From NCBI RefSeq assembly GCF_055900595.2, contig NZ_CM148325.1: a stretch of 64,000 nt of DNA. One strand, written 5' to 3'. Position numbers: made by a program. Below are positions 8,218 through 11,200 of the stretch, piece after piece. The stretch's first letter is position 1; each line of letters starts with the position of its first letter.

Positions 8218-11200
8218 TGACCACTACATTCTGACGGTAAACTCAGGAATTTGTCGGTAAGAGCCTGATTTACTGAGACAGAATCTTTGCCCCTGAGTCT
8301 AAGGATGATCGTATAACGTGATTTTCGGTCTACAAGTGTGGCTATATGAGAGTTTTTTGTACCTAAGACTAAATCGCCCTCCCAATGCCCCAGAGAGCGT
8401 CTGTTATCGATATTTCGGGAACGTTCGTGAATTGGTGTTCCGTTCACTATGTTAATCGTACCTCTTTCGCCTTTGCGGGTATGACGCCTGCCATGGCGAA
8501 GGCTATGCGACCGTCGCAGATGCTGTATATTCAGGTGGTGTAGCGCTTCACGGCTACGAAAGTACAGCGTTTTATAAATTGTCTCAGGTGATATTCGCAG
8601 CGTTTTTTGACGTGGTTTTGTTCGCCTTAACCATCCTGATATTTGCTCTGGAGACCATTTCATCTCCAGCTTTTCCAGAACAAGCTTTCGCAATGGTAAA
8701 TTTTGATCCAGTAAGCACGGTTTTGGCCTTTTCGCCATTCTGTTGGCTCGGTTATTAGCATCAACAGCTTTGTAATAGCGTCTGCCCCGATTACGCTGAA
8801 CTTCACGTGAGATCGTCGAAGGACTGCGATTCAGCGCAGTAGCTATCGCACGAATGCTCATTTTGGCTGACAAACCAGCTCGTATCTCCTCGCGCTCAGA
8901 CAGTGTCAGGTGAGCTACAGCCCGCTTACGCTCATGGGGTTTTATGCCGCCAGTATCCCTTAACATAGTGAAGATCGTTCCGGGTTTTGAACCCAGGATA
9001 TTCGCTATTTCACTGAAGCCTGTTCCGTTCTTCCATAGTTCAAAAACAGAGGCTTTTTCCTCTGCTGTAAATGTTCGTCTCATTCAAAAAACCTCTGCAA
9101 CCCCATGTTTTCACATAACTGTTGCGTTGACCAATTGAATCTACAGTTGCTTTTTTTAATATATCTCGCTCAAGGCGAGCTTCATTTAACGCCTTACGCA
9201 GTTGCAGAATTTTAGATTCCAGTTCAGCCACCGTGCGGGAACCAAGAGTACCGAGCCCTTTTCTGGCGGCGGTAACCCATTGTCCTAAAGTGCCTTCAGG
9301 AAGAGATAATCGGGAAGCGCCTTCACTGATCGAAAGTTGATTTTCAAGAACCGTTCTGACAGCTTCGGCTTTGAACTCTTTAGAGTAACGTTGGGTTTTT
9401 CTGCTCATTATTAGCTCCTTCTGATGCCATTCTATTTCAGGAAGGAGTGTCCGTTAAACTCAGGCTACCTCATCCGTCAGAGCTGCATGATGGCGGCGTG
9501 AGAACCTTAGGCATCCCGACAGTGGTGGATAGGCCTATCCAGCAGGCTATAGCTATAGCGCAACATTTAAGCGCCATCGTGGACAAAAGCTTCTCAGACT
9601 CTAGGCACGGTTTCCGGCTGGGACGCAACGTATGGCAGGCAGTGCAATAGGCACAGCATTATATACGGGGCAGCAAACGGTGGGTGGTGGATATAAATCT
9701 GGAGAAGTTCTTCGACCGTGTGGATCACAGACTCCTGATGACGCGTCTGGCCAGTACGATAAAGGACAGGCGGGTGCTGAGGCTGATACGCCGCTACTTG
9801 AAAGAGGAAATAGTCCGGGACGGGCAAAGAGAGAAATGGCAGGAAGGCATGCCGCAGGGCGGCCATTGCTGGATGATATCAGGACGTCGTAGAGAACAAA
9901 CTGAAGCAGAAAGTGAATGAGAAGAAGAGCGCGGTGGCGCGCCCGTGGGAGCAGAAGTTCCTCGGGTACAGTATGACATGGCACAAACAGTTGAAGCTGA
10001 AAATAGCCCTGACGAGTGTGAACAGGCTGAAGGAGAAAGTGCGCAGTCTGACCACGGGAAACCGGAGCAAATCAGTGAAAGCGACAATCAATGCCCTGAC
10101 GCCAGTGCTGCGTGAACCTGTTTAAGATTCTGTGTAAATGCCTTTTCTCAGAAGTGACCGTCCTGGCGGTCACCGAACTCGATAATAAAGCGGCTGAACC
10201 TGTACATAGATTTGTGTAATCGCCTGATTTTGATATGTTCAATCCAGCATCATATGAAGGTTAATTTATGGATGAAAAACAGTTACAGGCTCTGGCTAAC
10301 GAACTGGCCAAAAACCTCAAAACCTCTGAAGACCTCAGTCAGTTTGATCGGCTGCTGAAAAAGCTCAGCGTTGAAGCCGCTCTCAATGCTGAGATGACAC
10401 ACCATCTTGGGTATGAGAAAAATCAGCCCAGACTAGGAGCTAACTCCCGCAACGGTTATTCCACAAAGACCGTTATCACAGGCGACGGTCCACTGGAACT
10501 GCGTACTCCGCGCGATCGTGACGGTACCTTCGAACCACAACTGGTAAAGAAAAATCAGACCCGTATTACCGGGATGGATAACCAGATCCTCTCGTTGTAT
10601 GCCAAAGGGATGACCACTCGTGAGATAGCTGCTGCGTTCAAAGAACTGTATGACGCAGATGTTTCACCGGCGCTGACAGCCGAAGCTGGCAGGCTAACTG
10701 GCCGAATCTTGCCACGTTCTTCGCTTATCCAACGGACATCCGCAAAGTGATCTATACGACGAATGCCATCGAGTCGCTAAACAGCGTGATCCGCCATGCG
10801 ATCAAAAAGCGTAAAGTGTTCCCGACAGACGACTCGGTGAAAAAAGTGGTGTGGCTGGCAATCCAGTCTGCGTCCCAGAAATGGACGATTCCGTTGAAGG
10901 ACTGGCGAATGGCAACGAGCCGCTTGGAACTGTAAATATCACATAGTTTTTGCGCCAAAATACCGAAGACAGGTGTTCTACAGAGAGAAGCGTAGAGCAA
11001 TAGGCTGTATTTTGAGGAAGCTGTGTGAGTGGAAAAGTGTACAGATTCTGGAAGCTGAATACTGTGCAAATCCCGCCCCAAATGAGCGCATACGGAAGTG
11101 TTCTGCGCTGGTTTTGCCGTACTCCTTCATGGGCCGGTTATTCATATCCGTCAGTAAATCCCAAAAACGTACATTCAACGTAAGCATCCGGTGAACTCGC

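What the first reader, a model, noticed from the sequence alone, without database searches (positions are those of the whole stretch)
9473..10115. Decayed group II intron reverse transcriptase sandwiched between IS fragments
Three frame-shifted ORF pieces on the plus strand carry RT and maturase-like motifs (GVRTLGIPTVVDRPIQQA, FFDRVDHRLLMTRL, RVLRLIRRYLK). The N-terminus and the ribozyme domains are missing because IS600-like and IS256-family insertions bound the fragment. This is a relic of a retroelement that once targeted this island.
Basis: partly seen in the sequence, partly recalled or inferred. Interest (0 to 1): 0.4.

Follow-up and report, generated by a model that had tools for sequence, protein, structure and literature searches.

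The report
Dead, dismembered class C group II intron
The stretch is the broken middle of the reverse-transcriptase gene of one dead group II intron (a selfish retroelement), cut up by insertion sequences; its front half lies 17 kb away on the other strand, and it is an ordinary genomic fossil.

Summary
Window 9473-10114 (+) is 90-92% identical in DNA to the middle of the ltrA gene of intact E.c.I6-like group II introns. A frame-corrected translation matches the group II RT/maturase model (E 2.6e-49) and not the retron models.

1. ORF pieces 1 and 2 share a frame and are split by a TAG stop. Only piece 3 is frame-shifted.
2. Most of the missing protein was lost through two in-frame internal deletions at short direct repeats. 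One is 261 nt. The other is 129 nt and removes the YADD active site.
3. The N-terminus and the 5' ribozyme are not lost. They lie at 26958->26517 (-). Both pieces meet at the same ORF position and carry the 3-bp TCC duplication of one IS600 insertion. They are contiguous in E. coli FDAARGOS_536. In the window an IS30 x IS30 inversion separates them.
4. The original target survives: a terminator hairpin downstream of an alcohol-dehydrogenase gene, which is the class C hallmark. An intron-free version of the locus exists in another strain.

Domains V/VI and the C-terminal third of the ORF are absent from the window. The element is non-functional. This is a known kind of element, of low interest.

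The parts
9473..10114 (+). Central piece of the intron-encoded RT/maturase pseudogene, equal to ORF nt 63-1090 of an E.c.I6-like ltrA. It retains RT2-RT3, the first half of RT4, RT6-7 and the first ~33 residues of domain X. 9473-9475 (TCC) is one copy of the IS600 target duplication.
   Evidence: blastn and global alignment to L002/L004 ltrA at 90-92% identity. TIGR04416 E 2.6e-49 on the frame-corrected translation. The motif names come from general knowledge of group II IEPs.
9489..9495 (+). Junction of a 261-nt in-frame internal deletion (codons ~27-113; RT0 and most of RT1). A single GATGGCG is left where the parent has two copies 261 nt apart.
   Evidence: String search: GATGGCG at L004 2740 and 3001, and once in the window at 9489.
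9546..9551 (+). 6-nt in-frame tandem duplication (ATAGCT)
   Evidence: Multiple alignment with four relatives.
9648..9650 (+). TAG nonsense codon (Gln165 of the parent), which separates ORF piece 1 from piece 2 in the same frame.
9857..9887 (+). Junction of a 129-nt in-frame deletion between GGGCGGCC and GGGCGAGC repeats. It removes the end of RT4 and RT5, including the YADD codons (L004 3451-3462). Two 1-nt deletions follow, at about 9866/9867 and 9886/9887, and shift the frame into ORF piece 3.
26517..26958 (-). 5' half of the same intron copy: the GUGCG 5' end, ribozyme domains I-IVa and ORF codons 1-22. The ORF starts at 26581 and has a TAA at 26563-26561. There are internal deletions of 18 and 40 nt. 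26519-26517 is the other TCC copy of the IS600 target duplication.
   Evidence: Rfam RF02001 group-II-D1D4-3, 89 bits, at 26698-26849 (-). blastn to the L004 intron, E 1e-171. 95.5% identity in aligned columns. Junction sequence read directly.
26961..26990 (-). Original insertion site (5' exon): an 11-bp-stem terminator hairpin plus a T6 run, directly upstream of the intron's first base and downstream of the zinc-ADH gene (27017-28042, -).
   Evidence: Terminator scan. Every other E.c.I6-like copy also sits just after a hairpin. The empty site is in L007.
14171..15457 (-). Original 3' flank of the insertion site, carrying the convergent GntR/FadR-family regulator gene (ORF 14772-15443, +). In the intron-free locus it is contiguous with the terminator.
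   Evidence: L007 3023-4319 aligns to window 15463->14171 at 90.4%. L007 507-3028 aligns to window 29485->26961. Junction read directly.
9146..9472 (-). IS600 left part (terminal repeat TGAGGTAGCC... and the N-terminal part of orfA). It abuts the relic.
   Evidence: RefSeq names it 'IS3-like element IS600 family transposase'.
25579..26516 (+). IS600 right part (rest of orfA/orfB and the right terminal repeat ...ACCTCA). It abuts the 5' half of the intron.
   Evidence: 327 + 938 - 2 = 1263 nt in total.
8229..9145 (-). IS30 copy 1, inside IS600 and truncated at 8228/8229 by IS911. One partner of the inversion.
   Evidence: 99.3% identity to copy 2 over 943 nt in inverted orientation. NCBIfam IS30.
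24358..25578 (+). IS30 copy 2 (1221 nt). Its left flank is a different IS3-family orfA and its right flank is the IS600 right part. The other partner of the inversion. The 2-bp AC duplication of the original IS30 insertion is now split between copy 1 and copy 2.
   Evidence: The un-inverted arrangement is in L006.
10115..10195 (+). Right boundary: 3 nt (AAC) of unknown origin, then a 78-nt orphan end resembling the IS1414 terminal repeat (IS256 family). A second copy lies at 23218-23295.
10196..10925 (+). IS1414 (IS256 family) with a ~511-nt internal deletion, followed by an IS200C fragment.
   Evidence: Intact IS1414 copies align from query position 106/107 to 836, with a 1242-nt span in the record. 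NCBIfam IS256 on both ORF pieces.

Best explanation
Window 9473-10114 is the central part of the reverse transcriptase/maturase gene of a single dead copy of an E.c.I6-like class C (IIC) group II intron.

How it once worked (from knowledge of the family). The intron RNA and its endonuclease-less RT formed an RNP. The RNP reverse-spliced just after a Rho-independent terminator hairpin and was copied into DNA using a replication-fork primer.

Where it landed (shown). It landed after the terminator of a zinc alcohol-dehydrogenase gene, between that gene and a convergent GntR-family regulator.

How it was destroyed.
- IS600 inserted at ORF codons 21-22 with a TCC duplication (shown).
- IS30 inserted into that IS600 (shown).
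- Slippage-type deletions at short direct repeats removed 261 nt and 129 nt of the ORF, the latter including YADD, and 18 and 40 nt of the ribozyme (shown).
- Two nonsense codons and two 1-nt deletions arose (shown).
- The 3' third (end of domain X, domains V/VI) was lost at a junction with an IS256-family end, and the 3' flank was flipped (the loss is shown; the mechanism is inferred).
- In the window's lineage, recombination between two inverted IS30 copies inverted about 16 kb. The 5' half now lies 17 kb away on the other strand (inferred from comparison with a strain that has the contiguous layout).

About 56% of the intron (1,082 of ~1,900 nt) survives in the window. It cannot splice, encode an RT or move.
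For: Identity:
- DNA is 90-92% identical to intact ltrA genes.
- Those relatives carry Rfam D1-D4 and D5/D6 domains around the ORF, and they are 94-99% identical to E.c.I6 of CFT073.
- E.c.I6 is listed as class C (PMC3522654, Table S2; coordinates).
- The reassembled copy is 93.3% identical to the E.c.I6 reference.
- TIGR04416 scores E 2.6e-49, against retron models at 16 bits or less.
- The parent IEP has RVT_1 and GIIM only, with no endonuclease domain.

One copy in two pieces:
- The 5' piece ends at intron position 527 and the relic starts at 524.
- The junctions read ...CATCC|TGAGGTG (IS600 right end) and ...CCTCA|TCCGTCAG (IS600 left end), against the parent ...TATCCGTCAG. This gives a 3-bp TCC duplication.
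- In FDAARGOS_536 the order ADH' - terminator - 5' half - IS600::IS30 - relic is contiguous.

Inversion:
- Window 24332-27223 is inverted relative to that strain, with the breakpoint inside IS30.
- The AC duplication of the IS30 insertion is split across the two copies.

Target:
- Hairpin plus T6 lies directly before GUGCG.
- All four other copies also follow hairpins.
- The intron-free locus L007 joins window 26961 to about 15457.
- Class C introns insert after terminators and lack the En domain (PMC1702495 abstract; PMC4424553).

Lesions. No D5/D6 anywhere in the window.
Against: - No intact intron more than ~92% identical to the ORF part was found, so the immediate parent is unsampled.
- The order of the destructive events is inferred, not dated.
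- The event that removed the 3' third and flipped the 3' flank was not identified.
- A third layout in strain FY10 shows that the locus has a more complex rearrangement history than one inversion.
- The class C assignment rests on a published table plus the terminator context and the lack of an En domain. It does not rest on a ribozyme-structure analysis done here.
Confidence: 0.93

Rival explanations
1. The RT fragment comes from a non-intron bacterial reverse transcriptase, such as a retron, a DRT/Abi defence RT or a diversity-generating retroelement.
For: The single ORF pieces hit only the generic RVT_1 model, below its threshold. Weak retron Ec67 and Drt2 hits (E 3e-3 and 7e-3) appear for the reconstructed protein.
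Against: - The group II RT/maturase model scores 168 bits, against 16 bits for the best retron model.
- There is a GIIM (maturase) hit on piece 3.
- DNA is 90-92% identical to ltrA genes that sit inside Rfam-verified group II ribozymes.
Confidence: 0.01
2. The relic at 9473-10114 and the 5' intron piece at 26517-26958 are remnants of two independent intron insertions, and their proximity is coincidental.
For: They lie on opposite strands, 17 kb apart. Their identities to L004 differ (95.5% against 92%).
Against: - The breakpoints coincide to the base, with a shared TCC duplication, and the two complementary ends of IS600 abut them.
- The two pieces are contiguous across a single IS600::IS30 in FDAARGOS_536.
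- The 5' region is also more conserved than the ORF among intact family members: 97.8% against 94.3%.
Confidence: 0.03
3. The intron was a passenger of the IS. It would be an IS3-targeting intron of the E.c.I4 type that had homed into IS600, rather than IS600 having inserted into the intron.
For: E.c.I4 homes into IS3-family transposase genes (PMC3522654). Related strains carry such introns in IS3 elements nearby.
Against: - The relic has no DNA similarity and only 32% protein identity to that IS3-resident ltrA.
- The 3-bp duplication flanks IS600 inside the intron ORF.
- The intron's own 5' junction is a terminator next to a host gene.
Confidence: 0.01
4. The ORF fragments are retained because they are expressed and have acquired a host function.
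For: The relic is at least 99% identical in ~154 complete E. coli genomes. RefSeq annotates two of the pieces as hypothetical proteins.
Against: - The catalytic YADD is deleted, and there are stops and frameshifts.
- Relic-specific substitutions include 20 at codon positions 1 and 2.
- The whole IS-rich block is equally conserved (99-99.8%), so the conservation reflects recent common ancestry.
- No promoter or expression evidence was gathered.
Confidence: 0.02

Closest known systems
E.c.I6, class C (IIC) group II intron of E. coli CFT073/ED1a/S88/APEC O1 (NC_004431 4320108-4321914; Leclercq & Cordaux 2012, PMC3522654)
   Same: - The reassembled copy is 93.3% identical over 977 aligned columns.
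- The 5' end is the same (UGUGCGCCGUGAC...), without the ~20-nt duplication seen in L002-L004.
- The position after a hairpin is the same.
- Like the four E.c.I6 copies in that paper, its ORF is disrupted.
   Different: - Its genomic site differs: after the terminator of an ADH gene, not in the grp/selC island.
- It is much more degraded. It is split by IS600::IS30, has four internal deletions, and lacks the 3' third.
- Over the ORF columns it is an outgroup: 90-92% identical, against 94.5-99% among the other copies.
- It was not found in the parts of that paper's Table S2 that were read. The only E.c.I6 fragment listed there (E.c.I6-tr1, SMS-3-5) has other coordinates and sizes.
Intact E.c.I6-like introns on E. 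coli F-type plasmids and chromosomes, e.g. ltrA WP_021515390.1 on NZ_CP040454 (L004) and E. coli M19 (H126)
   Same: These are the nearest intact relatives: 92.2% over the ORF columns and 95.5% over the 5' ribozyme columns. Domain order is the same, and they supply the reference for every lesion.
   Different: They have a complete 462-aa ORF with YADD and D5/D6. The window copy has none of these.
Catalogued group II intron fragments in Escherichia/Shigella islands and plasmids (E.c.I3-tr, E.c.I4-tr, E.c.F10-15 and others)
   Same: It is the same kind of object: truncated copies, interrupted by IS elements or carrying internal deletions, lying in mobile-element-rich regions. The catalogue counts 111 fragments in 55 distinct copies.
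   Different: Here both the empty site and the intermediate (contiguous) layout are available, so the dismemberment can be reconstructed step by step.
B.h.I1 and other characterised IIC introns
   Same: Insertion directly downstream of a terminator hairpin followed by T's, and an IEP without an endonuclease domain (PMC1702495, PMC4424553).
   Different: Sequence relatedness to B.h.I1 was not tested here. The window copy is non-functional.

Membership tests
Group II intron retroelement | Intron-encoded protein with a group II-type RT domain | tested here: met
   TIGR04416 E 2.6e-49 (168 bits; below the 300-bit full-length cut-off because about half the protein is missing) and RVT_1 E 6e-19 on the frame-corrected translation. 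73% aa identity to an intact LtrA across alignment columns that include the deletions.
Group II intron retroelement | Maturase (domain X / GIIM) after the RT domain | tested here: inconclusive
   Only the first 33 of 80 GIIM positions remain. E 2.7e-3, below the gathering score. By DNA homology the piece does correspond to the start of GIIM in the parent, whose GIIM spans residues 332-410.
Group II intron retroelement | RT active site (YADD, RT5) | tested here: not met
   The YADD codons (L004 3451-3462) lie inside the 129-nt deletion. This bears on activity, not on ancestry.
Group II intron retroelement | 5' ribozyme domains (D1-D4) flanking the ORF | tested here: met
   RF02001 scores 89 bits at 26698-26849 (-). 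The piece is physically joined to the relic in L006. RF01998 (D1D4-1) is not detected, and a 40-nt deletion falls in the region it covers in L002.
Group II intron retroelement | Catalytic domain V and domain VI | tested here: not met
   No RF00029 hit in the whole window at gathering score, nor in 6500-13500 at E<=5. No blastn hit to the intron 3' 400 nt. They have been lost from this copy.
Class C (IIC) group II introns | Insertion immediately downstream of an intrinsic terminator or other hairpin motif | tested here: met
   Hairpin 26990-26965 plus T6, then GUGCG. Four relatives do the same at four different hairpins. The empty site is in L007.
Class C (IIC) group II introns | IEP lacks the endonuclease domain; short intron (~1.8-1.9 kb) | tested here: met
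   Tested on the intact relatives: a 462-aa ORF with RVT_1 and GIIM only, and intron lengths of 1807-1921 nt. Not testable on the relic itself, because its C-terminus is missing.
Class C (IIC) group II introns | IIC ribozyme secondary-structure features / phylogenetic placement of the IEP in class C | not tested
   The class is taken from PMC3522654 Table S2 for E.c.I6. No phylogeny or structure analysis was done here.
E.c.I6 (naming rule of Zbase / Leclercq & Cordaux: at most 10% nucleotide divergence from the reference) | At least 90% nucleotide identity to the reference intron | tested here: met
   93.3% over 977 aligned columns for the reassembled copy. 90.1% over the ORF columns alone, which is borderline.
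Retron / defence RTs | Best profile match to retron, DRT or Abi RT models | tested here: not met
   retron_Ec67 16 bits and Drt2 15.6 bits, against 168 bits for group II.

The most novel reading that the evidence does not exclude
The relic would be the only surviving trace of a distinct sister lineage of E.c.I6. No intact copy more than ~92% identical over the ORF was found in 5,426 complete E. coli genomes or 72,556 plasmids. Its three observed layouts (contiguous, inverted, FY10-type) would form a stepwise record of IS-driven island remodelling that could serve as a lineage marker. A bolder reading is that the short RT-derived ORFs annotated as hypothetical proteins are expressed and functional. 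That is not excluded, but nothing supports it.
Probability: 0.3. Interest if true: 0.15.

Novelty: already known. Interest (0 to 1): 0.12.

Why it matters
It matters little for biology at large. Group II intron fragments in IS-rich E. coli islands are common and already catalogued.

There are three modest points of value.
- Annotation: two RefSeq 'hypothetical proteins' (WP_241216016.1, WP_023148293.1) are pseudogene pieces. The 5' ribozyme half is not annotated in the strains whose annotation was read here.
- A textbook case: the empty site, an intermediate layout and the final layout are all available. Together they show how a terminator-targeting intron is inactivated and scattered by IS insertion, slippage deletions and IS-IS inversion.
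- It fits the published view that E. coli introns are mostly inactivated single copies in mobile-element-rich DNA (PMC3522654).

Tried and rejected
- Rfam at a permissive threshold on 6500-13500, looking for domain V/VI next to the relic. The only hit was an IS009 match at E 2.9.
- blastn and tblastn of a full intact intron against the whole window, looking for the 3' third. It was not found. These searches found the 5' half instead.
- Search for an IS600-free or more complete version of this copy, using a spliced 5'-half + relic query. No such place was seen among the rows listed, and the best single-place match was a different copy at 92.0%.
- Search for a closer intact parent on plasmids. 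The best was 90.9-91.4%.
- Check of the 2012 catalogue for this fragment. It was not found in parts 1, 3 and 4 of Table S2. E.c.I6-tr1 of SMS-3-5 is a different fragment.
- An alternative alignment that splits the second deletion into two smaller ones. This was rejected because relative L003 carries CTGCTGGATGAAATCAGG at the distal site, which explains the relic sequence with a single 129-nt deletion.
- My first estimate of deletion sizes (254 and 121 nt) was wrong. Exact repeat positions give 261 and 129 nt, both in-frame.
- Counting how many genomes have the inverted and the contiguous layout, using IS30-spanning queries. The results were not specific enough, because IS30 is multicopy and the IS600::IS30 composite also occurs elsewhere.
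- The large protein databases, structure prediction and metagenome scans were not used. DNA-level homology had already settled the identity.
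Full report
**1. The observation**

Taken singly they give only sub-threshold Pfam hits: RVT_1 at E 3.6e-3 and 5.9e-5, and GIIM at E 2.7e-3.

At DNA level the signal is unambiguous. Positions 9489-9864 and 9857-10114 align to an annotated 'group II intron reverse transcriptase/maturase' gene (ltrA) of E. coli Z0117EC0098 at 90% and 92% identity, with E 9e-146 and 4e-106. They align to ltrA genes on F-type plasmids at up to 91.4%. Those relatives are complete introns. Rfam finds D1-D4 models upstream of the ORF and the D5/D6 model (RF00029) just downstream.

A translation of the relic taken in the parent's reading frame (213 aa) scores 168 bits (E 2.6e-49) on NCBIfam TIGR04416 (group II RT/maturase). 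The best retron model scores 16 bits and Drt2 scores 15.6 bits.

**2. Anatomy of the fragment**

The reference is the intact copy L004 (462-aa ORF with YADD; RVT_1 and GIIM only, no endonuclease domain). Against it, the relic corresponds to ORF nt 63-1090 and carries these lesions:

| Lesion | Window position | Effect |
|---|---|---|
| 261-nt deletion between two GATGGCG repeats | junction 9489-9495 | in-frame; removes codons ~27-113 |
| 6-nt tandem duplication | 9546-9551 | in-frame |
| TAG replacing Gln165 | 9648-9650 | stop codon |
| 129-nt deletion between GGGCGGCC and GGGCGAGC | junction 9857-9864 | in-frame; removes the YADD codons |
| two 1-nt deletions | ~9867 and ~9887 | shift the frame |
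| truncation | after 10114 | ORF ends at nt 1090 |

ORF pieces 1 and 2 are therefore in the same frame and are separated by a stop codon. Only piece 3 is frame-shifted. The 'missing N-terminus' is mostly the result of an internal deletion.

**3. Which intron**

The intact relatives are 94-99% identical to E.c.I6 of CFT073. Leclercq & Cordaux list E.c.I6 as class C (PMC3522654, Table S2/S3).

Over the ORF columns the relic is 90-92% identical to all of them. They are 94.5-99% identical to each other, so the relic is an outgroup to the sampled clade. Its 50 differences from L004 fall 12:11:27 on codon positions 1, 2 and 3 (chi-square p = 0.008). This suggests that part of the divergence arose while the lineage was still under selection and part arose by decay.

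The relic is unrelated to the IS3-resident intron found in related strains: no DNA hit and 32% aa identity.

**4. The other half**

Rfam on the whole window gives one group II hit, RF02001 at 26698-26849 on the minus strand. blastn of a whole intact intron against the window finds window 26956->26517 (-), equal to intron positions 30-527, with E 1e-171. The relic begins at intron position 524.

The junctions read as follows:
- 5' piece: ...GACGGCATCC|TGAGGTGTAC... (an IS3-family terminal repeat)
- relic: ...GGCTACCTCA|TCCGTCAGAG...
- parent: ...GACGGTATCCGTCAGGG...

A single IS600 therefore inserted at ORF nt 62-64 and duplicated TCC. Its left end now abuts the relic and its right end abuts the 5' piece.

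The 5' piece is 95.5% identical to L004 in aligned columns. It has deletions of 18 and 40 nt and a TAA at ORF codon 7.

In E. coli FDAARGOS_536 the whole structure is contiguous: ADH' - terminator - 5' half - IS600 right part - IS30 - IS600 left part - relic.

In the window, the block 24332-27223 is inverted relative to that strain, and the breakpoint lies inside IS30:
- IS30 copy 1 (8229-9145, -) follows the IS600 orfA.
- IS30 copy 2 (24358-25578, +) has a different IS3-family orfA on its left and the IS600 right part on its right.
- The AC duplication of the original IS30 insertion is now split between the two copies.

The simplest account is homologous recombination between two inverted IS30 copies, which flipped about 16 kb. 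Strain FY10 shows a third layout, so the locus has been rearranged more than once.

**5. The original target**

On the minus strand the intron's GUGCG (26958-26954) is preceded directly by an 11-bp-stem hairpin (26990-26965) and a run of six T's. This is the terminator of a zinc-binding alcohol-dehydrogenase gene (27017-28042, -). The four other E.c.I6-like copies examined each sit just after a different hairpin.

This is the known behaviour of IIC introns, which insert after intrinsic terminators and whose IEPs lack an endonuclease domain (PMC1702495 abstract; PMC4424553).

An intron-free homologue of the locus exists in E. coli CE12-1, with the gene order MFS transporter - ADH - terminator - convergent GntR/FadR regulator. 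It aligns to window 29485->26961 and then directly to window ~15457->14171. This defines both flanks of the insertion.

The intron's 3' third (rest of domain X, D5/D6) is not adjacent to either flank and is not anywhere in the window. The 3' flank is inverted relative to the relic in both the window and FDAARGOS_536. An older rearrangement must have removed the 3' third, and it was not resolved here.

**6. Boundaries**

- Left: IS600 left part, 9146-9472 (-). IS30 is inserted in it, and IS911 truncates that IS30.
- Right: after 10114 come three bases (AAC), then a 78-nt orphan end resembling the IS1414 terminal repeat (10118-10195), which recurs at 23218-23295.
- IS1414 proper then follows from ~10196 to 10925, with a ~511-nt internal deletion, and after it an IS200C fragment.

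**7. Distribution**

The relic with both junctions occurs in 134 complete E. coli genomes, and the relic itself at 99% identity or more in ~154 records. RefSeq annotates its pieces as hypothetical proteins.

No intact intron more than ~92% identical was found in the E. coli or plasmid collections.

**8. Verdict**

This is a non-functional fossil of a known retroelement family. About 56% of one E.c.I6-like class C intron survives in two pieces, and the reassembled copy is 93.3% identical to the E.c.I6 reference.

It needs correcting on the frame relationships, on how the N-terminal region was lost, and on the fate of the 5' ribozyme, which is still in the window. Such fragments are common and catalogued in Escherichia/Shigella (111 fragments in 90 genomes; PMC3522654). 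Novelty and interest are therefore low. The main value is corrected annotation and a clean worked example of retroelement dismemberment.

Noticed in passing
window 10118-10195 and 23218-23295: A 78-nt sequence resembling the IS1414 terminal repeat occurs twice (89.7% identity). Each copy directly abuts an IS1414 end: the left end at ~10196, and an inverted right-end fragment at 23288-23454. It may be the end of a related IS256-family element that IS1414 prefers as a target.
   Followed up: partly
window 9146 and 24357 (IS30 left junctions): The two IS30 copies sit at the homologous position (..ATATTAAAAAAAGC + 3 nt | TGTAG) of two different IS3-family orfA genes. This suggests an IS30 hot-spot within IS3-family elements. 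The IS600::IS30 composite also occurs on plasmids and at other chromosomal sites.
   Followed up: partly
window 15980-16102 (+): A strong Rfam isrC hit (150 bits) lies inside an IS3-family orfA-like ORF (15948-16295). It may therefore be IS sequence rather than an independent sRNA gene.
   Followed up: no
window 20324-21594: IS10-type element: RNA-OUT antisense RNA (20324-20393, -) overlapping the start of a 402-aa ORF (20386-21594, +), which was not scanned.
   Followed up: no
window 46003-46077 (-): tRNA-Arg (CCT), the only tRNA in the window. It may mark the integration site of the island.
   Followed up: no
window 29185-42216 (= L006 1963-14995, inverted): A block annotated in FDAARGOS_536 as HsdR N-terminal-domain protein, DEAD/DEAH helicase, ATP-binding protein and TerB N-terminal-domain protein. 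It looks like a defence-type gene cluster next to the sugar/ADH operon.
   Followed up: no
L002 3451-3462 (NZ_CP098195 ltrA): This otherwise intact E.c.I6-like ltrA encodes YADG instead of YADD, so the 'intact' chromosomal copy may be RT-dead. L004 and L003 keep YADD.
   Followed up: no
L001 7917-9425 and 19956-21464 (E. coli FY10): Two copies of an unrelated group II intron (ltrA WP_001189123.1, 502 aa) sit inside IS3-family transposase genes close to the relic in FY10. This is consistent with the IS3-targeting E.c.I4 type. None is present in the window.
   Followed up: partly
window 15457/15458: The original 3' flank of the intron target ends abruptly one or two bases short of the insertion point. 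Unrelated sequence and an IS4-family transposase fragment follow. The event that removed the intron 3' end here is unidentified.
   Followed up: partly
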